The notes beneath the pieces are model-generated. The model was not told where the DNA came from. It made no database searches and saw only the letters and a list, made by a program, of their open reading frames with translations. Positions 430 to 63,764 of a stretch of DNA of 64,000 bases are shown in pieces. The position numbers and the translations under genes are program-made. Positions within the stretch are counted from its first letter, which is position 1; every line of letters starts with the position of its first letter. Origin of the DNA: an uncultured Mycoplasmatota bacterium (GTDB lineage Bacteria > Bacillota_I > Bacilli_A > RF39 > UBA660); assembly GCA_900549325.1 (NCBI GenBank), contig UROI01000002.1, positions 81 to 64,080 on the forward strand, read 5' to 3'.

Positions 430-772
430 AAATCTTATAAGCCATGTTCTGTACCTATTGCTAGGCGGTAAATATTTATCTATGACATAATGTCATTCTT
501 CTTTGGATTCTTGTTCTCCTTGGAAGATTCCCCTACCATATTTTGGGTTTCTCGCTTGCGGGGTTTACCTCGTTTCATTCTACGAATTTCTTCATAGACT
601 CGTTTCTGTGGCACTTTATATCCATTTTATCATAGTTTCCCTTAGATAAAACGAATGCCGTCAGTTACCTGCCTTAGGTTATTTTTTCCCTAAGCACAAA
701 CACTACTATCATCACAGATAGTGCGAGCATGGACTTTCCTCTACATAATTATATGCAGCATTTACCCAGATA
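430..772 (-). ncRNA. rnpB: RNase P RNA, Bacillus-type (type B)
   Basis: Minus strand carries the universal blocks GAGGAAAGTCCATGCTCGCAC, AAGTGCCACAGAAACG, GGTAAACCCCGCAAGCGAGAAACCCAAA, GGTAGGGGAA and the 3' ACAGAACATGGCTTA. These align to the B. subtilis rnpB layout. Ends are approximate. Confidence 0.9.
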
Positions 773-774
773 AA

Positions 775-6411: not shown

Positions 6412-9400
6412 TTACTCCTCACTTATCTTTTTGTAATAATTATACCTATCTATAGCCCACTGTTTTTGCTCTTCTAATAATAGACTGGCACGTTCTTTAT
6501 CTTTTCTTACTAGGCTGGCAAATCTGTTTTCAGTCATTAAATAATCCTCATATTTATCAAATTCTGGTTCTTTAGAATCTAGGCTAAATTTCTTTGTATC
6601 TGGATTATATCTGAATGTTAAGAAATATCCACATTTAGTGGCAAGATAACCATTTGACTGAGAATGTTGCATACCTGTTTTGATACCATGCTCAATACAT
6701 GGAGAATAAGCTATTATTAATGATGGACCATTATGAAGGCTGGCTTCTTTGATAGCTTTTAGATACTGCTCTTTGTTATAACCTATATTTACTGAGGCTA
6801 CATATACATGTGGATAGCACATTGCTATTCTAGCTAAATCTTTCTTATAATTATCTTTACCATTTGATGTAAATGACGCTACTGAGCCGATATTTGATGA
6901 TTTTGATGATTGTCCTCCAGTATTTGAATATACTTCAGTATCAAGTACTAGAATATTTATATTATCTTTCTTTGATAGTACATGATCTAGACCGCCATAT
7001 CCAATATCATAGGCAAAGCCATCTCCTCCTAGAACCCATAACTGTTTAGGCAAGATATAATCTTTCATATCATTTAAATATGGATGTTTTTTATAATCAA
7101 TGCTTTCTTTTACTTCTTTGCAGATATCATAGTTATCCATATTTTCTATCCATTTTTTAAATAGTTTATTTCTTGGATATTCTTTCATGTATTTTTTTAT
7201 TTTATCTCTTTTGATATTTATACCTTGAAGAATACCATAGCCATATTCGGTATTATCTTCAAATAGTGAACTAGCCCAAGGTATACTATATGGCATACTT
7301 GGAACTGATCCTGAATATATTGATGAACAACCTGTAGCATTGGCTATTATTAGATTATCATTAAATACTCTGGTTAAATTTGTTATATATGGTGTTTCTC
7401 CGCAGCCTGCACAAGCACCAGAATATTCAAATTTTGGCTCTTTGAAACTTACATTCTTTACTGTTAATAAATTACTTTGATATTTATCATTAACATTGTT
7501 TTTAAGTAGATATTCAAAATTACTTTCTTTATCTTTATTTGGTACCATCTCCAAGGCTTTCTTACCTAGTTTTCCTGGGCAAGCTAAGGCACATACACCA
7601 CAGCCTGTACACTGTTCATAATTTATTCCAATAGTAAATTCTTTATCTTTTGGTAATAATGATGGTATGCTTTCTACTTTGCTATCTTTTTTATCTAGAA
7701 GGAATGGTCTTATTACACCATGTGGACAAGAAAATGCACACTGATTACATTCTATACAGTTTTCGCTTATCCAACAAGGAACTTCTTCGGCAATGTTTCT
7801 TTTTTCATCCTTAGTAGTGGCTCCTTCAAAAATACCTTCTTTATTTTTTATAAAACTACTTACTGGTAATGTATCTCCTTTAAGTAAATTTATACTTTCA
7901 TTAAAGTTTAATTTTTTATTATCTTTATATTCTAAATCTTTCCATTCTTCTGGTACTTCAAAAGTAGTTAAATATTCTAGTGAATTATCTATTACTTTAT
8001 TATTAATTTCTACGATTTTATCTCCTTTTGAGGCAAATCTTAGTTTATTATTTTCCTTTAGTATTTTTATTACTTTATTTATATCATAGATATTCATTAT
8101 TTTAAATATACATACTTCCATACAAGTATTTATTTTATTCTTTAAGCCTAGAGAGTTGGCTATTTTATAAGCATCTATAATGTATACTTTGATATTTTTA
8201 TCTTTTAATAGTCTTTTTACTTTATTTGGTAAAGACTTTGCTAAGTCTTCTTTACTTAGACTAGTGTTTAATAGTAGTATTCCATTTTGTTTTAGGTTAT
8301 CTATGATATCGTATTTATAAATATATGTGTCTTTTGATACTACAATGAAATCTGGATTATCGATGTAATAGGTACTTTTTATTGGGCTCTCAGAAATACG
8401 AAGGTGACTGCGAGTTACTCCTCCAGATTTTTTGGAATCATATTGGAAATATCCTTGAACATATTTTGGAGTGGCATCCCCGATTACTTTTAGAATATCT
8501 TTTGATGTTCCAACCATTCCATCTGAACCATAGCCATATATTATCATTTGGTAATTATGATTATCTAGTTTAAAATTATTATCTATATCAAGACTCAAAT
8601 TGGTTACATCATCGTTTATACCAATAGTGAAATTATTCTTCATATCTTTATTTAGGTTATCATAAACTGCTTTTATCATACTTGGAGTTGTATTTTTAGA
8701 AGATAATCCATATCTTCCACCGATTACTTTAATATTAGTATCTTTTAAGGCGTTGACAACATCTAGATATAGAGGTTCTCCTGAAGAACCTGGCTCTTTA
8801 GTACGATCTAGTACTGCGACTTTTTCTACTGTACTTGGTAATACCTCAAGTAAATGTTTAATACTAAATGGTCTATATAAATGAACTTTTATTAAACCAA
8901 CATTATAGCCATTTTTATTTAATTTATCTATAGTTTCTTCAATACATTCACAGACTGAACCCATAGCCACGATTACTTCTTTAGCAGTGCTACTACCATA
9001 ATAGTTAAATGGTTTATAATCTTTCTTTACTATTTTACCTACTTTTTTCATGTAATCTATGGTAATATCTACAGCATCTTCATAATATTTGTTTCTTACT
9101 TCAGTATTTTGGAAGTAAATATCGTCATTTTCTGCTGTTCCTCTTTCATTTGGATTTTCATTACTTAAAGCTCTTTCTCTAAAATTTCTTAAGGCTTTTT
9201 TATCTATAAGTGGCTCTAAGCGGGATAAGTCTACTTCTTTTACTTTATCTATTTCATGACTAGTTCTGAAGCCATCAAAGAAATTAACAAATGGTAATGA
9301 TGCCTTGATACTTGATAAATGAGCTATCATAGCCATATGATAAGCTTCTTCTACTGATGATGATGATAACATACATACACCGGTACTTCTTACGCTATAA

Positions 9401-9832: not shown

Positions 9833-10091
9833 TAAATGTATTAAAATAACAACTGAATATGTATAAGTTTTCTCAATTCTCAATGTAAAATTTTTATTTT
9901 TGCTTTTTCACTCTTTAACACTAATCTTGTAGCTATTTAATCCTGCCTGACTTTACAAATATGTTTTAAAATAGGAAATTTTTTGATTTAAAACTGTTAA
10001 CTCTACCATTTTTTATATCCTTGTAAAATGTTTATAAGATTTTTATATACTAAACATATGTACTAAACTACAATCAAGTATATAGTTCTTG

Positions 10092-10175
10092 CTTATATAT
10101 AATAGGCATACTGATGCATTATTCTTAGACTAGAATTAGGCTAAGAATAACACTAAAAGACCTTGGCTTTTAGTG
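10092..10175 (+). repeat. Tandem-hairpin intergenic element, copy A
   Basis: CTTATATATAATAG, then GCAT-ACTG-ATGC mini-hairpin. Then ATTCTTAG-ACTAGAATTAGG-CTAAGAAT and CACTAAAAG-ACCTTGG-CTTTTAGTG. Confidence 0.7.
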
Positions 10176-10185
10176 AAAGGAATAG

Positions 10186-10215
10186 AAAAAAATTCTATTA
10201 TTATTAGTAATAGAA
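10186..10215 (-). terminator. Rho-independent terminator of the lipoprotein gene
   Basis: Minus strand: TTCTATTA-CTAATAA-TAATAGAA followed by seven T. Confidence 0.7.
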
Positions 10216-10223
10216 CTTTAGCT

Positions 10224-10766
10224 TTATTTACATGTTAATCCACGGTCTGTATATGTTTTCTTTAGAGTATTAAAATCTCTATTTATACCAAAGTTAGTTA
10301 TATCAGTATCTGTTAATTTTGTTAAATCGTAGGTGTATGTTACACTATAATCATTATCGTTATCATTATCTATTTTGGTAGTAAATCCTTCTGTATTGGT
10401 ATAACTTCCAAATCTAGTATTATGTCTAGTTTTTATACCTGCAATATCTAGAATTGTATCTGCTACTCCTGTTACTACATCATCTAATGCTTCTCCTACT
10501 ACACCATCTACGATACCATTGCTATCAGGATCTTTATCACTAGTTGTACCATCTGTACCTGTTCCTACTCCATCGGTATGATTATCTTTATAATCATAAG
10601 TAGCTGTTAGTTTTTTTACATCATTTCCATCGTATTCTATCATGTACTTTGTCTTGGCTGTGATATTACCTGATTTTGTTTCACTAGTACAAGTTAGTGT
10701 TTTGGTATTGGCTGTACATCCTGAAAGAACTGCAATTACGGCAATTATTAGTAGTACTTTCTTCAT
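10224..10766 (-). CDS. Putative lipoprotein
   Basis: Signal peptide with lipobox MKKVLLIIAVIAVLSGC. Mature part is T/D/G-rich. Confidence 0.75.
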   Translation of the reverse strand: MKKVLLIIAVIAVLSGCTANTKTLTCTSETKSGNITAKTKYMIEYDGNDVKKLTATYDYKDNHTDGVGTGTDGTTSDKDPDSNGIVDGVVGEALDDVVTGVADTILDIAGIKTRHNTRFGSYTNTEGFTTKIDNDNDNDYSVTYTYDLTKLTDTDITNFGINRDFNTLKKTYTDRGLTCK

Positions 10767-10874: not shown

Positions 10875-12248
10875 TTAATAATCACAGTTTCCTGGAGTTC
10901 TAGGATATGGTATTACATCTCTTATGTTATCTACTCCTGTTAGATAGATAAGTAATCTTTCAAAGCCCATACCGAATCCTGAGTGAGTACATCCACCGAA
11001 TTTTCTAAGGTTTAGGTACCACTGCATTGATTCTTCTTCCATTCCTAGTTCATTCATTCTATTTAATAATTTATCATAGTCTTCTTCTCTTTGACTACCA
11101 CCCATTAGTTCTCCTGCTCCTGGAACTTCTAGGTCTACTGCTGCAACTGTTTTACCATCTGGGTTTTGTTTCATATAAAAGGCTTTGATATCTTTTGGCC
11201 AATTTTTTATGAATACTGGACCACCAAAGTATTCTGTTATGTATTTTTCATGTTCTCTAGCGATATCTTCACCATATTCTGGTTCGAATTCCCATTTTAC
11301 TTTGGCTTCTTTTAGTATTCTTATTACTTCTTCATGATCTACTCTAGTGAAGTGGCTATTTATTAGTTTATTTAATTTTTCTAATAGGCCTTTTTCGACG
11401 AATTTATCAAAGAATTCCATCTCGTTTGGACAATTATCTAGGACATATTTTACTACATACTTTAGCATGTCTTCCATGATGTCCATGTCTCCTTCAAGGT
11501 CACAGAAGGCTATTTCTGGCTCTATCATCCAAAATTCTGAAGCATGGGTTTTGGTGTTAGAATTTTCCGCTCTAAAGGTTGGTCCGAATGTATAGGTCTT
11601 TTTGTAAGCCATAGCAAATGTTTCAGCCTCTAGTTGTCCGGATACGGTAAGAGCAGCCATTTTTCCAAAGAAATCTTTTGAGTAGTCTACTTTTCCTGTT
11701 TCTGCTACTTTGTTTAAGTCTAGTGTTGTTACTTGGAACATTTGGCCTGCGCCTTCACAGTCTGATGCTGTTATTAATGGAGCATGGAAATAAACATAAT
11801 TACGCTCTTGGAAATATTTATGAATAGCATAAGCCGCTACACTTCTTACTCTAAATACAGCATTAAATAGATTTGTTCTTGGTCTTAAATAAGCTATTTC
11901 TCTTAAGAATTCTCTTGTTGGTCTACCTTTGGCTTGAAGTGGGTAATCATCTGGGCAGTCGCCTTCAAGAACAAATGAAGTCATAGATAATTCAAATGGT
12001 TGACCTTCTTTTGGTGACTTTATTAATTTACCTGTTACAGTAATAGCACTACCTAATTTTAATTTTGTTACTTCTTCAAAATCTTTTAGGCTATCATCAT
12101 ATACTACTTGTAATCCTTTGAAGCAAGTTCCATCTGATAAATCTATGAATCCAAAGTGAGCTTGTTTTCTATGACTTTTAATCCAACCACTTACGGTGAT
12201 TTCTTGTCCTATATAATCTTTTAAATATAATTCTTTAATATCTAACAT
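10875..12248 (-). CDS. asnS: Asparagine--tRNA ligase
   Basis: 457 aa class IIb aaRS. C-terminus HSGFGMGFERLLIYLTGVDNIRDVIPYPRTPGNCDY matches the AsnRS signature. Confidence 0.9.
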   Translation of the reverse strand: MLDIKELYLKDYIGQEITVSGWIKSHRKQAHFGFIDLSDGTCFKGLQVVYDDSLKDFEEVTKLKLGSAITVTGKLIKSPKEGQPFELSMTSFVLEGDCPDDYPLQAKGRPTREFLREIAYLRPRTNLFNAVFRVRSVAAYAIHKYFQERNYVYFHAPLITASDCEGAGQMFQVTTLDLNKVAETGKVDYSKDFFGKMAALTVSGQLEAETFAMAYKKTYTFGPTFRAENSNTKTHASEFWMIEPEIAFCDLEGDMDIMEDMLKYVVKYVLDNCPNEMEFFDKFVEKGLLEKLNKLINSHFTRVDHEEVIRILKEAKVKWEFEPEYGEDIAREHEKYITEYFGGPVFIKNWPKDIKAFYMKQNPDGKTVAAVDLEVPGAGELMGGSQREEDYDKLLNRMNELGMEEESMQWYLNLRKFGGCTHSGFGMGFERLLIYLTGVDNIRDVIPYPRTPGNCDY

Positions 12249-16089: not shown

Positions 16090-16830
16090 TCACTCAACTA
16101 TATTTGATTTTGTCTCAAAACCATTTAAATAATAATTTGGTATCTTGCCTTGAATTACTTTCATTCCGATGGGAATACTGGCACTTATATTTAAGTCTTC
16201 TGTTGATATAGGTAAGATTACTTTAGTGGTTACGGATATATTTACTAATACTTTTAATAGGGCATTATTTATACCATACTCTACTACTTCGGTACTAAAG
16301 TTTGTTGATACGTCTCCTAGTAAAGACATTTTTACTGGTATTTTAGGACCTATGTTAGATAAAAGGCTAGAACCTGTGGTTAGTCCAAAGGGTATTGCAC
16401 ATATTATTCTTTTTGATAGTAAGTCCATGTTGTAATTACTTAGACTATTATCTGGTAATTCTAACATATCTATTTTACCTTCTTCGACTGCACGAAGGTT
16501 TAATTCAACAAGGCTTGTCATTGTACTTAATACTTTGGACGTTTTTTTAGTATCAAAATCTATTAAAATTATTTCTCCTTCTTTATTATATGTTATTTTA
16601 AATAATTCCTCAACATCCATATTATATAACTGCTTTGTTACGGCTTTGTTTATAATTAGTATGGTTAGCTTTTGGGTTTCTGCTTCAGCATATGATTTTA
16701 ATATTGGATATGCTTTTTTAGAATAATAATTTATAAATGTAAGTGATAGTATCATAACAGATGTTAATATTAATAAAATTATTAGCAGAATATTATGTTT
16801 TTTATTTTTTTTCTTTAATATCATTCTCAT
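16090..16830 (-). CDS. yunB: Sporulation protein YunB
   Basis: N-terminal TM. The segment LSNIGPKIPVKMSLLGDV...YGINNALLKV...VIQGKIPNYY aligns to B. subtilis YunB. Confidence 0.85.
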   Translation of the reverse strand: MRMILKKKNKKHNILLIILLILTSVMILSLTFINYYSKKAYPILKSYAEAETQKLTILIINKAVTKQLYNMDVEELFKITYNKEGEIILIDFDTKKTSKVLSTMTSLVELNLRAVEEGKIDMLELPDNSLSNYNMDLLSKRIICAIPFGLTTGSSLLSNIGPKIPVKMSLLGDVSTNFSTEVVEYGINNALLKVLVNISVTTKVILPISTEDLNISASIPIGMKVIQGKIPNYYLNGFETKSNIVE

Positions 16831-17211: not shown

Positions 17212-17283
17212 CACTTCAGGCCTAAGGTCCTGAAGTGTTTGTTTAAGCCTTAGGTCTTAAACAAAGAGCTATTATATATAAGC
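17212..17283 (-). repeat. Tandem-hairpin intergenic element, copy D (inverted relative to the other copies)
   Basis: Minus strand reads CTTATATATAATAG, then TTTGTTTAAG-ACCTAAGG-CTTAAACAAA, then CACTTCAGG-ACCTTAGG-CCTGAAGTG. Confidence 0.7.
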
Positions 17284-17356: not shown

Positions 17357-19534
17357 TTAATCATCTGAGAAAAAGTCATCAAAGAAATCGTCATCACTTG
17401 TATTATCTGTATACATATTTTGTAGTTTTTCTTCTGCTGTATTATCTTCTTTAGGTACTGATGCTTTTTCTTCACTTTGTGTCAAATCATTAAATGATAT
17501 ACTTTCTTTATCAGCTAGTGGTTTAGCTGGCTCCGAAATTACATCTACTGGTTTTTGCTCTTTTTCTTGTTCCTTAGCTTGTTCTTCTTCTCTTTCAATT
17601 TCCGCTATTTTAGCATCGATCTTCTTAACTAAATCGTCTATGTTGAAACTATCTTCTTCAGGTTCTTGTCTTCCTTGATTACCTAAGAAGCTAGGCATAC
17701 CGCTACTAAATGGATTTGAAGATGGACTAGCAAACGGATTTGAACCACCAAATGGGTTACTCATAAATGGATTTGATGAAGATGCAAATGGATTAGACAT
17801 ATTAGGATTAAATTCTCCCATTGCAGCCATCTTTTCTTGCTTCTTTGCTTTAACAAATTCTCTTATATCAAATAATTGTAACTCTCTCTTTGGTCTTGCT
17901 TCTGGAGTACTTTTTGGATATGTTCTACCCCAATCAACTTGGAAGTCTGTTTGAAATTTTGTTTTATATGGAAACATTCTTCTTCTTAAAACAATTATTT
18001 CAAACTGATTTAGTCTTTGTAAATCACTTACTGTTACTAAAGGTGTTGAAGCAGTTTTATCTTTTTCTTTTGATTTTACTTCACCACACATTTTACTTAT
18101 TTCTTCAAGAGCTGCTATTTCGCTACTTATCAAATATAGTAAATTACAGTTACCACGAATAGTATCACCATTCTCTTTACCATACACTTGGGTTAACTGT
18201 GCGAAGTTTTGAATAATAAAGGTAAATCTAATTAATCTACTTCTAGCAGCAGTAACCATTGTTGTAACATCTTTTAAAGGTGGCATATTGGCAAACTCAT
18301 CTAGAATAAAGTTAGTTCTATATGGTAACTTTCCACCACTTTCTTGAGCAACATCTATCAATGTTTCATAACACTGTTTAATGAATATTGTAGCAAGAGG
18401 ATGCAATGTTTTCTTCTCATCTTGAACTATTAAGAAAACAGCTGTTTTCTTTCTACCAATATCACGCATATCAAAATCGCTATAAGATAGCATTTCTGAT
18501 AAATTTTCTCTTGATGAGAATAATTTTATTTTTTGTTTAAATGTTGCTATAATACCCTGTTTTGTTTCATCCGCAGTGAAAACAGTACCCGAGGCATTAA
18601 TGTATGCAGGTTTAGATGGATCTTTGGCATTAAAGTACTCTTTTATATAGTTATTGTTTGGACCGCCAAATCTTTCTTCACCTAAGCTACTCATTAAGTT
18701 TATACTATTTAAATTTACTTGAGCTGGTGATGCATCTTCAAATAATCCTAATGCAAGACCTGTAAAATAGTCCGCTGCTGTTTTTTCCCAGAATGGATCG
18801 CCGCTACTTTTTTCTTCATATAATATATTTAATGCTAAGTCATCAAGTAACTCTATGGCCTTATCTGTATTGCCATCTTTATATAATTGGTAAGGTAGAC
18901 TCATGGGATTCCATGCATTTCCATGTTGTGGATCCCTAAAATTTAATGTAACTATATTATAGCCTTCATCTTTTAGTAATGATGCTGTCTCTTCATATAA
19001 CTCGCCTTTAGGGTCTGTTAATATCATTGATTCATTGTGCTTAGCTAATAATTTTATCATTGGTTTAGCTACTATTACGGTTTTACCTGAACCAGTAGCA
19101 CCCATAACTAACCAGTGGTCTTCACCATTATCAACCCACATTTTACCTTTTTTACTATATAAGGCTATACCAGCTGCGGGTATTGTCTGATCTTTAATGT
19201 TTACTACTTCAAGACCTTTTTTAAATTCAGCATCAGTTGCCCATCTTGAATAACCTTTTTCTTTCTTTGAACCTATACTAAAACCAAAGCCCTTTTCACG
19301 ATCAAAAATATATGATTTAACCGCTAGAAAAAGTCCTACTAGAGATGCTATAAATAAGAATAATGTCATACCTATGTATCTAGAAGTAAAGGCTTTAAAT
19401 GGTAAAAATCCATAAAACTTATTAGTTGAAGCTAAACTACTTACATTTAGCACTCCTATTGCACATAAATATAATAGAAATACGCAAAAAATTATAAATA
19501 TAATTAAATCTTTCTTTTCTACTTTTATCTTCAT
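17357..19534 (-). CDS. Type IV coupling protein (VirD4/TraG family ATPase)
   Basis: Two N-terminal TM helices, Walker A GATGSGKT, TDPKGELYEE, ILDEFAN Walker B-like motif. C-terminal NPF-repeat and acidic/aromatic tail. Confidence 0.9.
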   Translation of the reverse strand: MKIKVEKKDLIIFIIFCVFLLYLCAIGVLNVSSLASTNKFYGFLPFKAFTSRYIGMTLFLFIASLVGLFLAVKSYIFDREKGFGFSIGSKKEKGYSRWATDAEFKKGLEVVNIKDQTIPAAGIALYSKKGKMWVDNGEDHWLVMGATGSGKTVIVAKPMIKLLAKHNESMILTDPKGELYEETASLLKDEGYNIVTLNFRDPQHGNAWNPMSLPYQLYKDGNTDKAIELLDDLALNILYEEKSSGDPFWEKTAADYFTGLALGLFEDASPAQVNLNSINLMSSLGEERFGGPNNNYIKEYFNAKDPSKPAYINASGTVFTADETKQGIIATFKQKIKLFSSRENLSEMLSYSDFDMRDIGRKKTAVFLIVQDEKKTLHPLATIFIKQCYETLIDVAQESGGKLPYRTNFILDEFANMPPLKDVTTMVTAARSRLIRFTFIIQNFAQLTQVYGKENGDTIRGNCNLLYLISSEIAALEEISKMCGEVKSKEKDKTASTPLVTVSDLQRLNQFEIIVLRRRMFPYKTKFQTDFQVDWGRTYPKSTPEARPKRELQLFDIREFVKAKKQEKMAAMGEFNPNMSNPFASSSNPFMSNPFGGSNPFASPSSNPFSSGMPSFLGNQGRQEPEEDSFNIDDLVKKIDAKIAEIEREEEQAKEQEKEQKPVDVISEPAKPLADKESISFNDLTQSEEKASVPKEDNTAEEKLQNMYTDNTSDDDFFDDFFSDD

Positions 19535-19602
19535 ATAAAAATCTTTCCTTCCAATTAACTACCAATATTATAGCATTAATAATTTGAATTGTAAATAAGT
19601 TT

Positions 19603-19649
19603 AATATAAAAGAAAAGGCATTCCTTAAAAGATGGTCCTGCCTTTCTTT
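19603..19649 (-). terminator. Terminator separating the T4SS core operon from the coupling-protein gene
   Basis: Minus strand: AAAGAAAGGCA-18 nt loop-TGCCTTTTCTTT followed by TATATT. Confidence 0.55.
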
Positions 19650-19662
19650 GAGTATTTATTTT

Positions 19663-20523
19663 TTAACTTTTTAAATATATATCTACTTTATAATTCATAA
19701 TAGATTCTTCACTAAATACAAACTTGTTACCATTTTTATCAATAACTGAATATACTCTATTATTCTTTATTTTTTCCATTAAACATTTATCTGCTGAAGT
19801 TGATATTTGGTTGATATTACTATTCATATATTGCTTATAAGAATCAATGGTATCAAATTCAGCCTGTTTCTTCATACTATCACTAAGTAATGAATATGAC
19901 GAAGTTATATTAGTTCTTACTTTTTCTATATAATCAGATAAGTATAAAGAACATATCTCCTCTTTGGTAACTATACTAGGACTATTTACTTTATTATAAT
20001 CATTACTATTGATACTTATTTTTTTTATTTTATTAATTATTTTTGTATAATCTGTTTTATTGTCAATTGGATAAAATGATACAGTTAAATTGTTTAAATC
20101 CTTTAATATTATTATTTGAAAACTATCATCAATTTCTTTAGTACTATCATAATTATTCTGAATAATACTTCCTTTTAAGTAATAAATATAATTATTCCTA
20201 ACATTTACTGAAGTTATTGTATTTGCCTTTGCTGATGTATTTATTGGATATGTTATTATTTTATCTAATACATTGTCTATGGTTATTTCATTACTTGATA
20301 TATAATCTTCATCTAGTAAAGAATAGATAGCTTCTTTATTATTACTACTAGCATAGTTAACGTATTTATTTACACTGCTAACTATTGAAAAATAATCATT
20401 ATATTCACTTACCGCTGCTAGTTTATCACTATTACTTTTTATATTTAATATTAAAACAATTGCTAGTGGTATTACGCAAACAAGTATTACTACAATTAGT
20501 GTTTTTATATCATCTTTTTTCAT
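19663..20523 (-). CDS. Membrane-anchored T4SS accessory protein, possible VirB8/TcpC-like
   Basis: Single N-terminal TM then about 250 extracytoplasmic residues. Position between hydrolase and T4CP matches the VirB8-like slot of Gram-positive T4SS. No motif-level proof. Start set to MKKDD behind AAGGTGA. Confidence 0.4.
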   Translation of the reverse strand: MKKDDIKTLIVVILVCVIPLAIVLILNIKSNSDKLAAVSEYNDYFSIVSSVNKYVNYASSNNKEAIYSLLDEDYISSNEITIDNVLDKIITYPINTSAKANTITSVNVRNNYIYYLKGSIIQNNYDSTKEIDDSFQIIILKDLNNLTVSFYPIDNKTDYTKIINKIKKISINSNDYNKVNSPSIVTKEEICSLYLSDYIEKVRTNITSSYSLLSDSMKKQAEFDTIDSYKQYMNSNINQISTSADKCLMEKIKNNRVYSVIDKNGNKFVFSEESIMNYKVDIYLKS

Positions 20524-20535
20524 ATGTATCACCTT

Positions 20536-21714
20536 TTATTTACAACCATTTTTTACATAGTTAACGAATTCACTGCTACTTTCTCCTCTTTTAGTACAAG
20601 TATTTTTTGTATCATTAGGTCTTTCAAAATTATAGCAAAAATCATATGTTAGATCTTTACTTGATGATGTTCCTTCGGAAACTCCTTTATAAAGTGTTGG
20701 ATAGTTATTTTCTAGTTCATATAACAAGAAACCTACTTGTCCACCTATTGTATCGTAGTTATTAGGAAAAGTTGTCTTCAGATTATTCCATCTTTCATTA
20801 TGCCATTGACATAATCCATAACTGGTTGGTACACCATTTTCATAATCACCATATGCGTTATAATCAAATGAACTTTCATGATTGATATTAGTCATTAATG
20901 CAATTATTCCATTTTCTGATATTCCATTTGCTCTTAATGTTAAGCAAACACTTTGCTTATTAGAATCACCATCAACAGAACCACCATATTTGCCCTTTGG
21001 TCTAGGATTAGTTGCAGATATATAGTTGCTTGGATCAACATAACTACCATTGACCATAACTCCAAAATGTAGATGTGCACCTGTCGAAGAACCACTATTT
21101 CCTATTTTTCCAATAACTTGACCTTGTTTTACTTTATCTCCTGATCGAACTGTAATACTATTCTTAGCCATATGGGCATACACTGTATAAGTACCATCAG
21201 CATGAAGAATTTTAACGAAGTTTCCAAAGCCACCGCCATCAGTATTTCCGTAATAACCATTGTCGTTATATTGTACATCACTATCGGATGTTGGATATAC
21301 AATTTCTCCTTCTTCAGCAGCAATTACATTTACTGTCCCTACTCCACCTGCTCCTGGAGATATATCTAGACCATTATGATTGCTTGTTCTAAAGCCATCA
21401 TCGCCACCAAACTCTGATGTAATGGTGATACTTACAGGTTCACCATCAGCATATGTTACACCATTTTCAGTTCTTGTCTCTGAACTTCCTACTGGCCACC
21501 AATATGTATTTTTTTCTTTTATCTTAGAATAATCATTATATGCATATGAATTTCCTGAACTACCACCAATTTCTAGATTATCTATCCAAAGTGGTGATGT
21601 TAATATTACAATAAATATTACTGGAAAAAAAGCAATTAATGTTGCTATACCAATTATAACTACCTTTTGTTTAATACTTAAACCTTTCCATTTTTTTAAT
21701 AAAACTTTCCACAT
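20536..21714 (-). CDS. Bifunctional cell-wall hydrolase (M23 peptidase + phage-tail-lysozyme-like domain), VirB1 analogue
   Basis: N-terminal TM. M23 motifs HNGLDISPG and GSSTGAHLHFGVMVNGSYVDP. C-terminal YGLCQWHNERW lysozyme-like domain. Confidence 0.8.
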   Translation of the reverse strand: MWKVLLKKWKGLSIKQKVVIIGIATLIAFFPVIFIVILTSPLWIDNLEIGGSSGNSYAYNDYSKIKEKNTYWWPVGSSETRTENGVTYADGEPVSITITSEFGGDDGFRTSNHNGLDISPGAGGVGTVNVIAAEEGEIVYPTSDSDVQYNDNGYYGNTDGGGFGNFVKILHADGTYTVYAHMAKNSITVRSGDKVKQGQVIGKIGNSGSSTGAHLHFGVMVNGSYVDPSNYISATNPRPKGKYGGSVDGDSNKQSVCLTLRANGISENGIIALMTNINHESSFDYNAYGDYENGVPTSYGLCQWHNERWNNLKTTFPNNYDTIGGQVGFLLYELENNYPTLYKGVSEGTSSSKDLTYDFCYNFERPNDTKNTCTKRGESSSEFVNYVKNGCK

Positions 21715-21739
21715 TAATATCACCACCTAATGGAGAGTA

Positions 21740-23524
21740 TTATAATCCTCCACCTGAGCCAAATGACTCTAATTCATCTTCTGTTACTATTGCGTTTATT
21801 TGCATTCTTCTATTACCACATACAAATAATGCTTCACCTTGGCTAAATCTCTTTATACCTTCTTTTTCATTTTCATTTAAATCTATTAACATTGATAAGT
21901 CTTCAACTGATTGTTTCTTTAATCCCATAACTAAATAATATGAAGAGTTATCAAATATTGCCTTACCATGCATTAATATTCCATCTGCTACAAAGTCTGA
22001 TGGTTGCTGAGTAATTATTATTGTTCCTGTATTGTATTTTCTTGCTCTTCTTTGAACTTGGGCTAAGAATTCTGCTCCTAGTTCATTTTTAGCTCCTAAT
22101 AATACGTGTGCTTCATCTACTGATAGTACTGTATTTTTATTTGGGTCTAAGCATAGTCCCCAAGCAAACTTAAGTACATTAAATAATAGTGCATTTCTTA
22201 TGTTAACATCTGAATTCATTAATTCTTTTATATTGAATACTAGAAAATCACTATCAGTATTTATTGAAGTATGACCATTAAAGTAATATTGTAATTCTCT
22301 TACAAATGGTCTTAATTTTAATTCTAGTCTTTCCATAACATCTCTTTCATGAGTTTTCTCAGTCATTGATGTTAATTTACTTGTTACTGTTACATATACA
22401 TCACTAAATGTTGGAAATTGATTTGAAGTAAATTTAGTAAAATCTGAAGTAAAGGTTATGCCGAATCTAGCATATGTATCTTGCACTACCTCACTAAATA
22501 GTGTTAATACATCATCTTCAATATCTGGAGCATAATACTTCATGAATGCTTTTAATGATTGTAAAGTTTTATTAAGTACAGTGTAACCTAATCCTGACCT
22601 TATTTCATTTTCATCAGCATCCATTATTATTTCAAGTGGATTTACCATTCCGTATTCTCCACCCTTACCTAAGTCTACTACATCGCCACCATACATTTTT
22701 GTCATTTCACTTATTTCGCCTTCAGGGTCTACTGCTACTATTTGATAGCCATTTCTTATATGACTACGAAGTATTAATTTAGCTGCTGTTGATTTACCTG
22801 ATCCTGAAGTACCTAATATAATCATGTTGGCATTATTTCTATTGCTTTCTTTTCTTATTTGATATAAGAACTGATTAAATAGTACAACACCACCAGAGAA
22901 ATCCACTCCAAGAAGTGTTGATAATCCATCATCTTTGATGCTATCAAAGATGAATGGATACATTGCTGCCATTGTTGGAGATGGCATTGGCGTACCAATT
23001 CTACTTTCTATTATTTGTTTGTCAAATATAGGAAGGATAGATTTCAATACTCTTTCTTGTTCAAATCTAAGAGGTATAGCTCTCATTTCCATAGCATCAA
23101 GATAATTCTTAATACTAACTTTCTTATTTTCTAATTCTTCTCTAGTATCAGCAGTAATCATTATATGCATTTGAAAATCAAATGTTTTTGCTTGTGAAGC
23201 AGTAAACTGCTGAATAAAATATTCTAATGAATCAACGTCTTGTCTTATTCTTTCCTGTATTGTTCTATCTTTTTCTTGCTGGTATTTACTTTTTAGATCT
23301 GATATTTCTTTATTTAGCATTTTGGCTAGTACTGAAAATGGTAATGGAATGTGCTTAATAACCATTTTTACACCAGACATATTTGTTAAATTGGATAAAT
23401 ATCCTGGGCCAATTAATCTAGGATATGATATTACTGTTAATATAGTAGCATATCTATCACTGATAACAAAATCAGCAGGATTAAATTGTAATCCTTTCGG
23501 AGCTAGTTCACTTTTAAAATTCAT
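21740..23524 (-). CDS. VirB4-family T4SS ATPase, C-terminal two thirds (ATPase domain)
   Basis: Walker A GTSGSGKST, Walker B SVDEAHVL, IIITQQPSDF. Begins where ConE/Orf16-type VirB4 proteins are about 190 residues in. Confidence 0.9.
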   Translation of the reverse strand: MNFKSELAPKGLQFNPADFVISDRYATILTVISYPRLIGPGYLSNLTNMSGVKMVIKHIPLPFSVLAKMLNKEISDLKSKYQQEKDRTIQERIRQDVDSLEYFIQQFTASQAKTFDFQMHIMITADTREELENKKVSIKNYLDAMEMRAIPLRFEQERVLKSILPIFDKQIIESRIGTPMPSPTMAAMYPFIFDSIKDDGLSTLLGVDFSGGVVLFNQFLYQIRKESNRNNANMIILGTSGSGKSTAAKLILRSHIRNGYQIVAVDPEGEISEMTKMYGGDVVDLGKGGEYGMVNPLEIIMDADENEIRSGLGYTVLNKTLQSLKAFMKYYAPDIEDDVLTLFSEVVQDTYARFGITFTSDFTKFTSNQFPTFSDVYVTVTSKLTSMTEKTHERDVMERLELKLRPFVRELQYYFNGHTSINTDSDFLVFNIKELMNSDVNIRNALLFNVLKFAWGLCLDPNKNTVLSVDEAHVLLGAKNELGAEFLAQVQRRARKYNTGTIIITQQPSDFVADGILMHGKAIFDNSSYYLVMGLKKQSVEDLSMLIDLNENEKEGIKRFSQGEALFVCGNRRMQINAIVTEDELESFGSGGGL

Positions 23525-24081
23525 TATGAAATCACCGTCCCAAAATTAGTTGTCATTCCACTATTAAGGAAATTATCAAGTATTATTCTTAAATCATCAT
23601 TAGATACTTGTTTAGACTCTAAACCTGCATTAGCAAGTCCAGTAATTAGAGTTCTAAGTCTTTTTTGTATCAAATCGTCATTCTTTTCTTTAAATAATAT
23701 ATAGTACTCAGTATCAGTAATATTATTATTCATAAAATCATTGGCCTTATCTATATCTTGATTGATTAACTTTCTAACTGCTGGATTCGGAGTTTGATTA
23801 TATAATAACTGTAATCTAGCAAGATAGTTATTTAGATCTACTGGTCTATCTGCTGATATTAACCAAAATTCAAAATCTATTGTATTATAGAAATTCTTTA
23901 AAGCAATTATAGTATTATCTTGTGTACCTTGATCCAAGATAAAGATATTTCTTGGCTTTATTTTTACCCCTGTTACTTTTAGTTTGTTATCAAGTATTAT
24001 TGCTCCATTAGCAATACTTTTAATTGGTAACCAATCTTCAGTATACTTTGAACTATTTTTTGTCGTCGCCGAATTTTTCAT
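23524..24081 (-). CDS. VirB4 N-terminal domain encoded as a separate ORF
   Basis: DWLPIKSIANGAIILDNKLKVTGVKIKPRNIFIL resembles the N-terminal block of Gram-positive VirB4 (Tn916 Orf16 / ConE type). Its stop overlaps the next ATG (TAATG). Start set to MKNSATT. Confidence 0.6.
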   Translation of the reverse strand: MKNSATTKNSSKYTEDWLPIKSIANGAIILDNKLKVTGVKIKPRNIFILDQGTQDNTIIALKNFYNTIDFEFWLISADRPVDLNNYLARLQLLYNQTPNPAVRKLINQDIDKANDFMNNNITDTEYYILFKEKNDDLIQKRLRTLITGLANAGLESKQVSNDDLRIILDNFLNSGMTTNFGTVIS

Positions 24082-24373
24082 AGAAACACCAACCTCTCCA
24101 TATATAATTTCTTCTTTCTGTAAAAAATCTAAATACACTTTGTATAGCACATAAAACATTATGATAATTTGGTATTGGCACTACCAGTAGGCCAGTTACT
24201 CCTACTGGTAGACATGATATCAATATCATTACAGTATCACTTGAATCAACAAATACTAATAATAATAAAGTTACCACCATTCCTGTACCAAACATAATTA
24301 AATCAAATGGTCTAAATATATTAAATATCAATGTACCTCTTTTAGCATTAGCCGGTACTAAATATCCATTCAC
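24053..24373 (-). CDS. PrgI/VirB3-like small membrane protein
   Basis: 106 aa with GTG start behind AAAGGAG. Two TM helices, sits directly upstream of VirB4 as in Gram-positive T4SS. Confidence 0.55.
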   Translation of the reverse strand: MNGYLVPANAKRGTLIFNIFRPFDLIMFGTGMVVTLLLLVFVDSSDTVMILISCLPVGVTGLLVVPIPNYHNVLCAIQSVFRFFTERRNYIWRGWCFYEKFGDDKK

Positions 24374-24394
24374 TATGTATCACACTCCTTTTTA

Positions 24395-26440: not shown

Positions 26441-26452
26441 ACTAATAACCTC

Positions 26453-43943: not shown

Positions 43944-44035
43944 AAGTCTTGATGTTATGGCTTATATATAATAGATTTTATTTTAAAACTTTGAAAAGGT
44001 TTAAAATAACGCCTTAAGCCATATGGCTTAAGGGG
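43944..44035 (+). repeat. Tandem-hairpin intergenic element, copy C (divergent)
   Basis: AAG-TCTTGATGTTATGG-CTTATATATAATAG, then an AT-rich hairpin, then GCCTTAAG-CCATATGG-CTTAAGGGGC. Confidence 0.55.
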
Positions 44036-47793: not shown

Positions 47794-47851
47794 ATATATC
47801 ACGATATATATAATATTATATTATTAATAATAAGTCAATTATAATTTAAAC

Positions 47852-47902
47852 AATGAAGAACTTAGGCTTCATTGTTCCTCTTAAGATTACAAGCTTAAGA
47901 GA
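47852..47902 (+). repeat. Tandem-hairpin intergenic element, copy E
   Basis: CAATGAAG-AACTTAGG-CTTCATTG, TTC, then CTCTTAAG-ATTACAAG-CTTAAGAG. Confidence 0.65.
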
Positions 47903-52481: not shown

Positions 52482-52661
52482 ATATATACCTCCATTCTTA
52501 ATATATTTTATAGAAAAAATCATTAAATATTAATTTAAACTATACAAGTTAATTTTATCTTAGATTTTTTTTCTTGTCAAGTGCTTTTATTAAATGTGAA
52601 AATACGATATATTATATACCTAAATATTTATACTAAAATATATTTAAATATGTATACTTCT

Positions 52662-52757
52662 CTTATATATAATAGATGCACTGGCATATTAAATTAAGAC
52701 TCTTTAAATGAGGCTTAATTTAACACTCATAAGACTTACATAGTAAGGCTTAGAGTG
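52662..52757 (+). repeat. Tandem-hairpin intergenic element, copy B
   Basis: CTTATATATAATAG, then ATGC-ACTG-GCAT. Then AAATTAAG-ACTCTTTAAATGAGG-CTTAATTT, AA, then CACTCATAAG-ACTTACATAGTAAGG-CTTAGAGTG. Confidence 0.7.
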
Positions 52758-52764
52758 AACGCAA

Positions 52765-52790
52765 GAAAAAACTTACCACTTAAGGTAAGT
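52765..52790 (-). terminator. Rho-independent terminator of gap
   Basis: Minus strand: ACTTACC-TTAAGT-GGTAAGT followed by six T. Confidence 0.7.
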
Positions 52791-56074: not shown

Positions 56075-56117
56075 TGTTATCACCAGTAATATTTTTTACA
56101 AAAAGTACCGAAAATAT

Positions 56118-56446: not shown

Positions 56447-56464
56447 TTACTTCTTTTTTTATAT

Positions 56465-56492
56465 TAAAAAAGGAACGAAATGTCCCTTTTCT
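56465..56492. terminator. Shared hairpin between convergent rpsT and hicB
   Basis: AAGGAAC-GAAAT-GTCCCTT flanked by A-run and T-run. Pairs fully (with G-U) on the minus-strand transcript. Confidence 0.5.
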
Positions 56493-56525
56493 TCATCAGA
56501 AAAATGATAATTGTTATTTATTTTA

Positions 56526-56915: not shown

Positions 56916-56956
56916 TTTTTATTAGTAGTTTAGTAATAGTGTTTCAAGTACAGAAA

Positions 56957-57273: not shown

Positions 57274-57327
57274 CAATTTGAAGACCTTAGGCTTCAAATT
57301 GCCTCGGAAGACTACAGGCTTACGAGG
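57274..57327 (+). repeat. Tandem-hairpin intergenic element, copy F
   Basis: CAATTTGAAG-ACCTTAGG-CTTCAAATTG immediately followed by CCTCGGAAG-ACTACAGG-CTTACGAGG. Confidence 0.65.
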
Positions 57328-57329
57328 AA

Positions 57330-57358
57330 TATAAAAAGAAAGAGAATTAAATCTCTTC
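57330..57358 (-). terminator. Rho-independent terminator
   Basis: Minus strand: GGAAGAGA-TTTAAT-TCTCTTTC followed by TTTTTAT. Confidence 0.6.
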
Positions 57359-57517
57359 CTATATCATATTTTCTAGGTTATCTATAGCTTTTGTTTTAGC
57401 AGAATTCATTTTTCTAGCTAACTTCTTAATATTACCATTTTTAATGTTTTGATATAGAGCGGCACTACCTACTCCTATACCCATACCCATTAAAGCCATA
57501 CCTACTTTGGATTTCAT
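57359..57517 (-). CDS. Possible 52-aa glycine-zipper membrane protein
   Basis: MKSKVGMALMGMGIGVGSAALYQNIKNGNIKKLARKMNSAKTKAIDNLENMI. GGGTGA RBS and a terminator directly downstream. Confidence 0.45.
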   Translation of the reverse strand: MKSKVGMALMGMGIGVGSAALYQNIKNGNIKKLARKMNSAKTKAIDNLENMI

Positions 57518-63756: not shown

Positions 63757-63764
63757 AAAAAAAT

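What the first reader, a model, noticed from the sequence alone, without database searches (positions are those of the whole stretch)
10040..10175. Dispersed family of tandem hairpins with variable covarying stems around a conserved AAG-A...G-CTT core (six loci in this window)
The family occurs at six loci: 10092-10175, 17212-17283 (inverted), 43944-44035, 47852-47902, 52662-52757 and 57274-57327.

Each locus has two or three adjacent hairpins of the form stem-AAG, A, short insert (often CCTTAGG or CCTAAGG), G, CTT-stem. The outer stems differ completely between copies but always stay complementary.

When the core changes, both sides change together. Examples are TAG/CTA in copy A and AGG/CCT in copy D. 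The second hairpin often begins CACT and ends AGTG.

Four copies carry the motif CTTATATATAATAG on the 5' side, and in copy A this motif is the 3' arm of a further TATAAG...CTTATA hairpin.

All copies lie just beyond gene ends. They are not followed by U-tracts themselves and mostly sit next to separate canonical terminators.

Structure is conserved while sequence drifts. That points to a functional RNA or single-stranded DNA structure, such as a small RNA family, a protein-binding or processing site, or a REP/MITE-like element recognised by shape. I do not recognise it as a named motif.
Basis: seen in the sequence. Interest (0 to 1): 0.72.

Follow-up and report, generated by a model that had tools for sequence, protein, structure and literature searches.

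The report
Dispersed tandem-hairpin repeats, gut Bacilli
The six loci are real copies of an undescribed, abundant family of paired DNA/RNA hairpins, conserved in shape and in a small mismatched core rather than in stem sequence, that sits between genes in some uncultured gut bacteria; its function is unknown and it most resembles the "REP" repeats of other bacteria.

Summary
All six loci carry two directly abutting hairpins with the core ...G|A|C(U)...(A)G|G|C...: an A·G mismatch between a G-C and a C-G pair, under a variable apex. The geometry is rigid. The lower stems are 10 bp and 9 bp, and the two cores are 17 nt apart. Stem sequences are locus-specific.

A covariance model finds the family only in the window's species and some sister species. 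A metagenome scan found 111 further stretches, mostly human gut, against about 5 expected by chance. Viral contigs, plasmids, phages, Rfam and the searched literature gave nothing.

The elements lie in terminator-to-promoter spacers in either orientation, about 2:1 antisense to the genes. They show presence/absence differences between strains and signs of gene conversion between copies. They are absent from equally related sister genomes.

Several asymmetries are strand-specific: the A·G core, purine·purine mismatches, and a 62% A tail after hairpin 2. One subfamily also has a perfectly conserved upstream block, CTTATATATAATAG.

Best reading: a REP-like, shape-recognised repeat family folded on one strand, with one subfamily plausibly expressed as small RNAs of about 100-125 nt. 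No mobilising enzyme, transcript or partner protein was identified.

The parts
10092..10105 (+). Locus A: conserved block CTTATATATAATAG (contains a perfect TATAAT)
   Evidence: Exact match. Every exact copy in 2.3 Mb is followed by family hairpins.
10106..10117 (+). Locus A: small 4-bp hairpin HP0 (GCAT-ACTG-ATGC)
   Evidence: All four pairs are compensated relative to E (ATGC-ACTG-GCAT). It is not in the minimum-free-energy fold of A. E's equivalent is in that fold.
10119..10150 (+). Locus A hairpin 1: TTATTCTTAG|A|CTAGAATTAG|G|CTAAGAATAA
   Evidence: Covariance model 30.0 bits, E = 0.0023.
10151..10175 (+). Locus A hairpin 2: CACTAAAAG|A|CCTTG|G|CTTTTAGTG
   Evidence: Covariance model 27.2 bits, E = 0.012.
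10181..10199 (.). Locus A: A/T-rich terminator-like hairpin between hairpin 2 and the stop of the convergent gene 10224-10766
   Evidence: Fold. ORF map.
17269..17282 (-). Locus B: CTTATATATAATAG block
17238..17265 (-). Locus B hairpin 1: TTTGTTTAAG|A|CCTAAG|G|CTTAAACAAA
   Evidence: Covariance model 33.7 bits, E = 2.5e-4.
17212..17237 (-). Locus B hairpin 2: CACTTCAGG|A|CCTTAG|G|CCTGAAGTG (the AGG/CCT core variant)
   Evidence: Covariance model 33.0 bits, E = 3.8e-4.
43961..43974 (+). Locus C: CTTATATATAATAG block
43978..44009 (+). Locus C hairpin 1: TTATTTTAAA|A|CTTTGAAAAG|G|TTTAAAATAA (closing pair A-U instead of G-C)
   Evidence: Read. The orthologue in L003 is hit by the model at 23.7 bits.
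44012..44033 (+). Locus C hairpin 2: CCTTAAG|C|CATATG|G|CTTAAGG. The mismatch is lost here; L001 has AAGACATATGGCTT.
47849..47876 (+). Locus D hairpin 1: AACAATGAAG|A|ACTTAG|G|CTTCATTGTT
   Evidence: Covariance model 30.2 bits. The whole tandem is absent at this site in L002, L003 and L004.
47878..47901 (+). Locus D hairpin 2: CTCTTAAG|A|TTACAA|G|CTTAAGAG
   Evidence: Covariance model 28.3 bits.
52662..52675 (+). Locus E: CTTATATATAATAG block
52676..52687 (+). Locus E: small hairpin HP0 (ATGC-ACTG-GCAT)
52689..52723 (+). Locus E hairpin 1: TTAAATTAAG|A|CTCTTTAAATGAG|G|CTTAATTTAA
   Evidence: Covariance model 27.7 bits. The locus is absent between gap and rny in L005, L007, L008 and L012.
52724..52757 (+). 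Locus E hairpin 2: CACTC(A)TAAG|A|CTTACATAGTAAG|G|CTTAGAGTG (bulged A)
   Evidence: Strain variants.
52771..52790 (.). Bidirectional terminator of the GAPDH gene, 13 nt after E hairpin 2
   Evidence: flagged on both strands.
57274..57301 (+). Locus F hairpin 1: CAATTTGAAG|A|CCTTAG|G|CTTCAAATTG
   Evidence: Covariance model 37.0 bits, E = 3.5e-5. The same hairpin occurs in 19+ metagenome contigs.
57302..57327 (+). Locus F hairpin 2: CCTCG(G)AAG|A|CTACAG|G|CTT(A)CGAGG, with an internal G·A mismatch
   Evidence: Covariance model 29.2 bits.
57337..57360 (-). Terminator of the upstream minus-strand transcription unit, 9 nt after F hairpin 2

Best explanation
These are copies of a lineage-specific, high-copy family of structure-defined extragenic repeats. 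In genomic behaviour they are REP-like.

Anatomy. The unit is two abutting imperfect palindromes: a 10-bp then a 9-bp lower stem of free sequence. Each is capped by a fixed core (closing G-C, an A·G mismatch, then C-G and usually U-A) and a variable apex. An A-rich tail follows.

Geometry (inferred). If the two hairpins stack end to end, they form a nicked dumbbell. The two A·G cores would lie about 19-20 bp apart and be related by a two-fold axis.

Recognition (inferred). The element is probably recognised as a folded single strand, RNA or ssDNA, of the AAGAC strand. The recogniser is probably a dimeric protein that reads shape, the mismatch and distance rather than stem sequence.

Genomic behaviour. 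Copies sit in the untranscribed spacer between one gene's terminator and the next gene's promoter, in either orientation. They are gained or lost between strains and exchange sequence by gene conversion.

Subfamily with CACT...AGTG second hairpins (window A, B, E; C carries the block but has a different second hairpin). These carry a conserved upstream block, TATATA-N6-8-CTTATATATAATAG(AT), on the same strand. They are probably transcribed from it as small RNAs of about 100-125 nt that end at the neighbouring, often shared, terminator.

Subfamily with CCTC...GAGG second hairpins (window D, F). This is a bare module of about 58 bp with no conserved promoter.

Shown: the anatomy, distribution, polymorphism and strand asymmetries. 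Inferred: recognition by a protein, transcription, and the mode of spread.
For: Family is real and specific:
- The covariance model hits only the window and L001, L003-L008, L010 and L011 among 81 sources.
- There are 126 tandems against 0 in the reversed-sequence control.
- A 22-base metagenome pattern gave 111 stretches against about 5 expected (my estimate). Of the 80 listed, 3 soil/rhizosphere contigs got no covariance-model hit.

Rigid geometry with free sequence:
- Core-to-core spacing is 17 nt in 105 of 126 tandems.
- Lower stem 1 is 10 bp in 38 of 41 unique tandems. Lower stem 2 is 9 bp in 33 of 41.
- Every locus within one contig has different stems.

REP-like behaviour:
- All copies are intergenic, 3-130 nt past a stop codon and upstream of the next gene's promoter, in both orientations.
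- In the first 18 loci (window and L001-L011), 12 are antisense and 6 sense to both flanking genes.
- D is present in the window, L001 and L010 but cleanly absent in L002, L003 and L004. F is absent in L004 and L010. E is absent in L005, L007, L008 and L012.
- The same site holds opposite orientations in different species.
- In L003 the second hairpin of C differs by one base from the second hairpin of E. Apex sequences are swapped between strains.
- There are no hits in about 115 kb of equally related sister genomes, L013 and L015-L019.
- Density is about one locus per 10-15 kb.

One-strand asymmetry:
- The A·G core is kept in nearly all copies.
- Stem mismatches are purine·purine 13 to pyrimidine·pyrimidine 1.
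- Within orthologue groups I count 4 internal single changes, all giving U·G on this strand and none giving C·A.
- The 15 nt after hairpin 2 are 62% A in both orientations, against 39% upstream.

Promoter-like block:
- All distinct exact copies of the 14-mer are followed by family hairpins.
- It peaks at a fixed distance, 22-23 nt before hairpin 1 in 9 of 13 loci.
- The small hairpin after it is compensated between A and E.

Conservation at orthologous sites:
- The central 26 nt of F hairpin 1 are identical between the window and L005, at about 75% genomic identity. The flank upstream of it is unalignable.
Against: - No transcript data are available. Both strands fold equally well.
- The block lacks a TTGACA-type -35, although this organism's mRNA promoters have one.
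- The CCTC subfamily has no positionally enriched -10 relative to the opposite strand.
- G·U versus A·C counts among paralogues are balanced, 6 to 6.
- The defining REP features are missing: stems conserved within a genome, a 5' GTAG, and alternating orientation.
- No RAYT/IS200-like gene was found in element-bearing DNA. The queries were recalled from memory and only parts of genomes were sampled.
- No multi-context gene family was seen near the elements.
- Copy number per genome is extrapolated, not counted.
Confidence: 0.5

Rival explanations
1. A multi-copy family of genuine trans-acting small RNA genes. Each unit would be promoter, two or three hairpins, an A-rich linker and a terminator. 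The repeated A·G cores would be binding sites that titrate or recruit one RNA-binding protein, in the way CsrB/RsmZ-type sponges work.
For: - A conserved block with a perfect TATAAT lies at a fixed distance on the same strand.
- A compensated small hairpin lies just after the expected start site.
- An A-rich tail and then a terminator-like hairpin follow hairpin 2 in both orientations.
- The units lie outside neighbouring transcription units.
- There are two or three near-identical sites per unit at fixed spacing.
Against: - About one locus per 10-15 kb, extrapolating to about 100 or more per genome (genome size assumed at 1.5-2 Mb), is far above known sRNA families.
- The family is absent from sister species and polymorphic between strains.
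- The CCTC subfamily has no conserved promoter.
- There is no conserved single-stranded seed.
- The shared terminators are optimised for the protein gene's strand, judged from the T-runs in the sequences.
Confidence: 0.2
2. Single-stranded-DNA recombination or transposition sites. The two hairpins would act like the left and right subterminal hairpins of an IS200/IS605-derived miniature element, a REP/RAYT substrate or an integron attC site. The A·G mismatch would mark which strand is processed. A retroposition-like route primed on terminator T-tracts is a more speculative variant.
For: - Hairpin size and the single irregularity resemble HUH-enzyme substrates (from established knowledge of IS608 and REP hairpins, not tested here).
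- Strand-marking asymmetry is present.
- D is a clean insertion or deletion of about 58 bp at the edge of a terminator A/T-tract that pre-exists in the empty site.
- Different species carry opposite orientations at one site.
- The orientation bias is 2:1.
Against: - No HUH transposase was found in about 1 Mb of element-bearing DNA.
- No multi-context gene family was found there either. Integrases and reverse transcriptases were not searched for specifically.
- Copy-and-paste spread should keep stems alike, yet every locus differs.
- No target-site duplication or conserved flanking tetranucleotide was seen.
- Most copies have the AAGAC strand on the inferred leading-strand template, not the exposed lagging-strand template. 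This inference rests on gene orientation and base skew only.
Confidence: 0.12
3. A cis-acting transcription or RNA-processing element. It would be a back-stop terminator or insulator, or an RNase (for example RNase III) processing site, placed after terminators to stop read-through into the next gene.
For: - The elements are always between a terminator and the next promoter.
- A few first hairpins are flanked by A and T runs and look like weak bidirectional terminators.
- In L004 and L008 the tandem starts within 4 nt of the stop codon with no other terminator.
Against: - Either orientation occurs, yet the conserved asymmetry would be inverted in the read-through RNA.
- Most copies lack U-tracts.
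- About 90% of the window's intergenic regions do without the element, and sister species lack it altogether.
Confidence: 0.08
4. Chance palindromes or ordinary intrinsic terminators with no shared identity.
For: AT-rich intergenic DNA is rich in hairpins, and both strands fold well.
Against: - Covariance-model E-values reach 3.5e-5 for many copies.
- There are 0 tandems in the reversed control against 126 observed.
- There are 111 metagenome matches against about 5 expected.
- Spacing and stem lengths are fixed.
Confidence: 0.01

Closest known systems
REP / BIME elements of Enterobacteria and Pseudomonas (substrates of RAYT transposases)
   Same: - Short imperfect palindromes in high copy.
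- Strictly extragenic and close to gene 3' ends, in both orientations.
- Clustered units.
- Strain-to-strain presence/absence.
- A conserved irregularity in the stem.
- Recognised as a folded single strand.
   Different: - The stems are locus-specific and only an internal core is conserved.
- There is no 5' GTAG.
- Units are in direct tandem with rigid 10+9 bp geometry instead of alternating orientation.
- They lie beyond terminators rather than in 3' UTRs.
- No RAYT was found.
- The host is a low-GC Bacilli lineage.
Integron attC sites
   Same: - Recognised by structure rather than sequence.
- Stem sequences vary.
- The apex is variable, like the attC 'variable terminal structure'.
- Asymmetry in the stem marks the functional strand.
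- They lie at the 3' ends of co-oriented genes.
   Different: - There are two abutting small hairpins rather than one long one.
- The conserved part is near the apex, not at the base.
- There are no R'/R'' AAC/GTT boxes.
- The flanking genes are housekeeping genes (GAPDH, RNase Y, PFOR, MurE), not cassettes.
- No integrase was seen.
IS200/IS605-derived miniature elements (PATEs) and their subterminal hairpins
   Same: - Two hairpins of about 25 nt, each with a stem irregularity.
- No terminal inverted repeats.
- A dimeric enzyme binding two hairpins is the known mechanism for that family.
   Different: - Stems are not conserved between copies.
- No TnpA was found in element-bearing DNA.
- No conserved target tetranucleotide was seen.
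Multi-copy sRNA families with their own promoter and terminator (streptococcal csRNAs, Listeria LhrC) and protein-sponge RNAs (CsrB/RsmZ)
   Same: - The subfamily with the 14-mer has a promoter-like block, two or three stem-loops and a terminator.
- It carries repeated identical motifs.
   Different: - The copy number is one to two orders of magnitude higher.
- There is no conserved single-stranded seed or GGA-type loop motif.
- The family is polymorphic between strains.
- Expression is untested.
ANTAR-target and HK022 put-type two-hairpin RNAs
   Same: Two adjacent hairpins with conserved positions near the loops.
   Different: - They are not in 5' leaders.
- There are no hexaloops with A1/G4.
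- They do not overlap a terminator.
- They occur in either orientation relative to the genes.

Membership tests
REP/BIME (RAYT-associated) | Short imperfect palindromes, extragenic, many copies per genome | tested here: met
   All copies are intergenic. Density is about one locus per 10-15 kb in positive genomes. The per-genome number is extrapolated.
REP/BIME (RAYT-associated) | Stem sequence conserved within a genome, with a conserved 5' GTAG tetranucleotide | tested here: not met
   Every locus in one contig has different stems. There is no GTAG in the 5' flanks.
REP/BIME (RAYT-associated) | Units clustered in alternating orientation | tested here: not met
   Units are in direct tandem with 17-nt core spacing. 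Only one head-to-head pair of tandems was seen, in L081.
REP/BIME (RAYT-associated) | A cognate RAYT (Y1 HUH transposase) gene in the genome | tested here: inconclusive
   tblastn with IS608 TnpA and E. coli RAYT sequences recalled from memory, over 2.3 Mb, hit only L046. L046 is an element-negative relative. Whole genomes were not available.
MITE | Terminal inverted repeats and target-site duplication | tested here: not met
   Filled and empty comparisons at D, E and F show no terminal inverted repeats and no clear duplication.
Intrinsic (Rho-independent) terminator | G+C-rich stem immediately followed by a U-tract | tested here: not met
   Only 2 of 12 window hairpins are flagged, on the minus strand, by the consensus scan. 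Separate canonical terminators lie next to D, E and F.
Any Rfam 15 family | Score at or above the gathering threshold, or any credible sub-threshold hit at the loci | tested here: not met
   The gathering-threshold scan of the window found only RNase P and 5S rRNA. E-value scans of 9.8-17.4 kb and 43.8-57.5 kb found nothing credible at the loci. The one overlapping match, HIV_POL-1_SL at 10156-10250, scores 19 bits at E = 6.6 and is noise.
Integron attC | A single long imperfect hairpin with conserved R''/R' (RYYYAAC/GTTRRRY) at its base, in a cassette array next to intI | tested here: not met
   There are two small hairpins with the conserved core near the apex. The neighbours are housekeeping genes. 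The window ORFs scanned gave no integrase hit, though not every ORF was scanned.
ANTAR-target two-hairpin RNA | Two hairpins with hexanucleotide loops (A at position 1, G at 4), in a 5' leader, the second overlapping a terminator | tested here: not met
   The apex is 3-7 nt above a variable upper stem. The elements lie upstream of the next gene's promoter, not in its leader.
Independent small-RNA gene | Own promoter and terminator on the same strand | tested here: inconclusive
   The 14-mer subfamily has a conserved TATAAT-containing block but no -35. The CCTC subfamily has no enriched -10. The terminators are mostly the neighbour's.
Independent small-RNA gene | A detectable discrete transcript | not testable with these tools
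   No expression data are available for this uncultured organism.

The most novel reading that the evidence does not exclude
The tandem is a new kind of shape-specified genetic element. It would be a nicked dumbbell of two abutting hairpins whose two-fold-related A·G mismatch cores, about 19-20 bp apart, are read by a dimeric enzyme on single-stranded nucleic acid.

That enzyme would insert, invert or convert the roughly 58-bp module next to terminator T/A-tracts.

This would explain three things together: locus-specific stems with a fixed core and ruler-like geometry, the swapping of apex sequences between copies, and opposite orientations at the same site. It would be a bacterial mobile or recombination system that recognises structure and distance rather than sequence, possibly working through an RNA intermediate.
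Probability: 0.12. Interest if true: 0.85.

Novelty: new variant of a known kind. Interest (0 to 1): 0.5.

Why it matters
Gut Bacilli of this uncultured, small-genome type have no described repeat families or small RNAs.

This family occupies roughly one in ten intergenic spacers in the window. It may therefore mark a lineage-specific nucleic-acid-binding activity.

If the hairpins are recognised purely by shape, a single A·G mismatch and a fixed 10+9 bp ruler, they are a clean natural example of structure-based recognition. The comparable cases are attC and REP, and this family would give a handle for finding the partner protein.

There is also practical value. The covariance model and the 14-mer are strain-level markers. 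The elements also sit beside sites where gene content differs between strains, which matters for assembling and comparing these genomes.

If it is merely a selfish repeat, it is still a new one, but of ordinary significance.

Tried and rejected
- Rfam, at gathering threshold and at permissive E-values, over all six loci: nothing.
- Literature search for the core sequences as DNA and RNA: 0 papers. The 200 of 408 held supplementary files of the Fremin & Bhatt human-microbiome structured-RNA catalogue (PMC8040213) gave 0 hits. That paper does report about 20 palindromic non-terminator candidates of unknown nature.
- Viral contigs with two patterns: 0. Plasmid and phage blastn with the E unit: no match.
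- RAYT/IS200 search by tblastn: only an element-negative relative was hit.
- All-against-all clustering of 1029 ORFs from element-bearing DNA, looking for a gene that recurs in many contexts: none stood out.
- Cis-regulatory leader idea: the genes downstream of sense-oriented copies are unrelated. By my reading of their sequences they include a rhodanese, a MurE-like ligase, ribosomal protein S2, NusB-like, SecG-like and RNase J-like proteins. Each has its own promoter after the element. Rejected.
- Thermodynamic strand test: both strands give z of about -4 to -5.6, so it is uninformative.
- G·U versus A·C among paralogues: 6 to 6, uninformative.
- Promoter search for the CCTC subfamily: -10-like hexamers are equally frequent on both strands.
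- Stems copied from the target site: the empty D site shows no trace of the stem sequences. Rejected.
- Hammerhead, K-turn, tRNA-anticodon-mimic and restriction-site readings of the core were considered by eye. The defining positions do not fit or vary between copies. Rejected.
- The long-range TATAAG...CTTATA hairpin in copy A was rejected.
Full report
**Source and setting**

The window is 28.5% G+C, and almost all genes are on the minus strand. The RNase Y gene at 50928-52523 is 100% identical to one in a MAG titled 'uncultured Bacilli bacterium'. It is 99% identical to the gene in 'Clostridium sp. CAG:302'. Relatives at about 85% identity are titled uncultured Bacilli or Tenericutes from human gut. 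The organism has a class B RNase P RNA and sporulation genes.

Reading the six loci shows, on one strand, two directly abutting hairpins. Their form is outer stem, closing G, unpaired A, C(U)...(A)G, unpaired G, closing C, outer stem. In other words, a G-C pair, an A·G mismatch, a C-G pair and usually a U-A pair, with a variable upper stem and loop above.

That strand is the plus strand at A, C, D, E and F, and the minus strand at B. A covariance model of one hairpin built from 21 copies scores 11 window hairpins at E = 3.5e-5 to 0.012.

- The AGG/CCT variant is in B, not D.
- In C the first hairpin closes with A-U, and the second has lost the mismatch in this strain.
- The proposed long-range TATAAG...CTTATA hairpin in A is not supported.
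- The 14-mer CTTATATATAATAG is exact at A, B, C and E.

**It is a family, and it is lineage-restricted**

Among 80 loci around RNase Y from other species, the model hits only L001, L003-L008, L010 and L011. It finds nothing convincing in about 60 more distant relatives. It also finds nothing in about 115 kb from sister genomes with the same RNase Y identity, namely L013 and L015-L019.

A 22-base pattern scanned over metagenome contigs returned 111 stretches, nearly all from human-gut assemblies, where I estimated about 5 by chance. Of the 80 listed, three soil or rhizosphere contigs got no model hit. The model then found 250 hairpins in 684 kb of these stretches.

Tandem pairs with the core number 126 in all held DNA. 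There are 0 in reversed sequences, a control that keeps palindromes but changes the core. Two patterns found nothing in 2.9 million viral contigs. The E unit has no blastn match in plasmids or phages. Rfam has no match, and the core sequences occur in no searchable paper.

**Anatomy**

- The distance from the GGC of hairpin 1 to the GA of hairpin 2 is 17 nt in 105 of 126 tandems.
- The lower stem of hairpin 1 is 10 bp in 38 of 41 unique tandems. That of hairpin 2 is 9 bp in 33 of 41.
- The first inner base is C in 66 of 75 unique hairpins, and the inner ends are CU...AG or CC...AG in 58 of 75.
- Above the mismatch, the apex ranges from a 4-nt loop to a 6-bp extra stem.
- Stems are different at every locus, even within one contig.

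If the two hairpins stack, they form a nicked dumbbell in which the two A·G sites are related by a two-fold axis about 19-20 bp apart. This geometry is an inference.

**Two subfamilies**

- One has second hairpins of the type CACT...AGTG. It is preceded by TATATA-N6-8-CTTATATATAATAG(AT) and a small 4-bp hairpin whose four pairs are all compensated between A and E. Window A, B and E belong here. C carries the block but has a different second hairpin.
- The other has a sequence-conserved second hairpin, CCTCTTAAGAC..GGCTTAAGAGG, with variable first hairpins and no conserved upstream block. Window D and F belong here.

Every exact copy of the 14-mer in 2.3 Mb is followed by family hairpins.

**Context**

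All copies are intergenic. They lie after a gene's terminator and before the next gene's promoter.

In the first 18 loci, 12 are antisense and 6 sense to both flanking genes. Across the larger set the ratio of antisense to sense copies is about 2:1. In antisense copies, hairpin 2 is followed within a few nucleotides by the A-run and hairpin of the convergent gene's terminator. The distance to that gene's stop codon is mostly 3-48 nt.

The genes downstream of sense-oriented copies are functionally unrelated, and each has its own promoter after the element. A leader or riboswitch role is therefore excluded.

**Dynamics**

- D is present in the window and L001 but cleanly absent in L002 and L003 (about 90% nucleotide identity) and in L004. 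The difference is just the two hairpins plus about 5 nt, at the edge of an A-run that already exists in the empty site. L010 has an element at the same site with different stems.
- F is absent in L004 and L010. It is present in L005, with the central 26 nt of the first hairpin identical although the adjacent flank is unalignable.
- E is absent in L005, L007, L008 and L012.
- At the C site, the window, L001, L003 and L011 carry the element antisense to the genes, while L004 and L006 carry it in the sense orientation.
- In L003, the second hairpin of C differs by one base from the second hairpin of E. In the window these two hairpins are unrelated. Apex sequences are swapped between close strains among a small recurrent set. 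This points to gene conversion between copies.

**Which strand matters**

Folding energies are the same for both strands. G·U and A·C counts among paralogues are equal. Four asymmetries nevertheless single out the AAGAC strand:
- The A·G core itself.
- Stem mismatches that are purine·purine 13 times and pyrimidine·pyrimidine once.
- Within orthologue groups, I count four internal single changes, all to U·G and none to C·A.
- An A-rich tail after hairpin 2, 62% A against 39% upstream, present in both orientations relative to the genes.

The conserved block of the first subfamily lies on the same strand.

**Interpretation**

The genomic behaviour is that of REP-like repeats: high density, extragenic location, both orientations, strain polymorphism, gene conversion, and patchy presence among sister species.

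The rigid geometry with free stem sequence and a conserved mismatch argues for recognition of a folded single strand by a protein that reads shape and distance. The two-fold arrangement suggests a dimer.

The subfamily with the 14-mer looks like a transcription unit of about 100-125 nt, but there are reservations. The block has no -35, although the organism's mRNA promoters do. The other subfamily shows no promoter signal. No expression data exist.

I found no RAYT/IS200-type gene in element-bearing DNA and no gene that recurs next to the elements. Only fragments of genomes were available.

Membership in REP/BIME, MITE, attC, ANTAR-target and terminator classes fails on at least one defining feature each. 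So this is best filed as a new variant of the structured-extragenic-repeat kind, not as a member of a named family.

**Verdict**

The finding is real and not previously described in the resources searched. It is moderately interesting. Its significance depends on whether a dedicated partner protein or a transcript exists. That can be decided with metatranscriptomes and a whole-genome census.

Noticed in passing
window 56463-57232 (minus strand genes): This segment of about 770 bp is absent from the conspecific contig L001. It is a hicA/hicB-like toxin-antitoxin cassette: a hicA-like small ORF (identified by eye) at about 57137-56958, and an ORF at 56915-56526 with a weak HicB-like antitoxin hit below Pfam's cut-off. 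It has its own TTGACA-17-TATAAT promoter (57188-57160) and terminator. It is bounded by ATAAAAAA on both sides and lies about 25 nt from the hairpin-1 side of element F.
   Followed up: partly
window 17357-28300 (minus strand): A block of conjugation / type IV secretion genes. It includes a VirD4-like coupling protein of the CD1115 family, a TraG/VirB4-like P-loop ATPase, a TrbL-like protein, and an M23 peptidase fused to a phage-lysozyme domain. This suggests an integrated conjugative element or its remnant. Element B sits just past its VirD4-like gene.
   Followed up: partly
L003 6993-9921; L004 9498-9934: In CAG:302 (L003), about 3 kb of extra genes lie between element E and the RNase Y promoter. 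L004 has a different gene at that spot. Gene-content differences between strains sit beside two of the spacers that hold the elements (E here, F for the hicAB cassette).
   Followed up: partly
L081 (13.4 kb), e.g. 9944-9996 (-) and 10035-10087 (+): This metagenome contig carries six element loci in 13.4 kb. They include one head-to-head pair of tandems, the only BIME-like arrangement seen.
   Followed up: no
L010 14212-14237 and about 7588-7613; L104 about 11653-11678: Some second or third hairpins carry a symmetric internal loop, UGA/GAA or AGA/GAA (tandem G·A / A·G), in the lower stem. L104 has three hairpins in a row.
   Followed up: no
window 433-773 (-) and 63764-63870 (-): Class B RNase P RNA (279 bits) and a 5S rRNA gene. 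The 5S gene lies near the window's end, so the window probably abuts an rRNA operon.
   Followed up: no
window 16090-16830 and 55055-56083: Sporulation-related genes are present: YunB and the germination protease GPR. These records are variously titled Bacilli or Tenericutes, so the organism may be a spore-former.
   Followed up: no
L046 1620-1970: Fragments of an IS200/IS605-type TnpA, in three pieces in different frames. They occur in a distant relative that lacks the hairpin family. This was the only clear HUH-transposase-like signal in 2.3 Mb.
   Followed up: no
window 52552-52580 (-) and orthologous positions in L001-L020: The RNase Y promoter (TTGACA-17-TAAAAT) and its leader are conserved across all relatives examined. 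The DNA immediately upstream of it is highly variable.
   Followed up: partly
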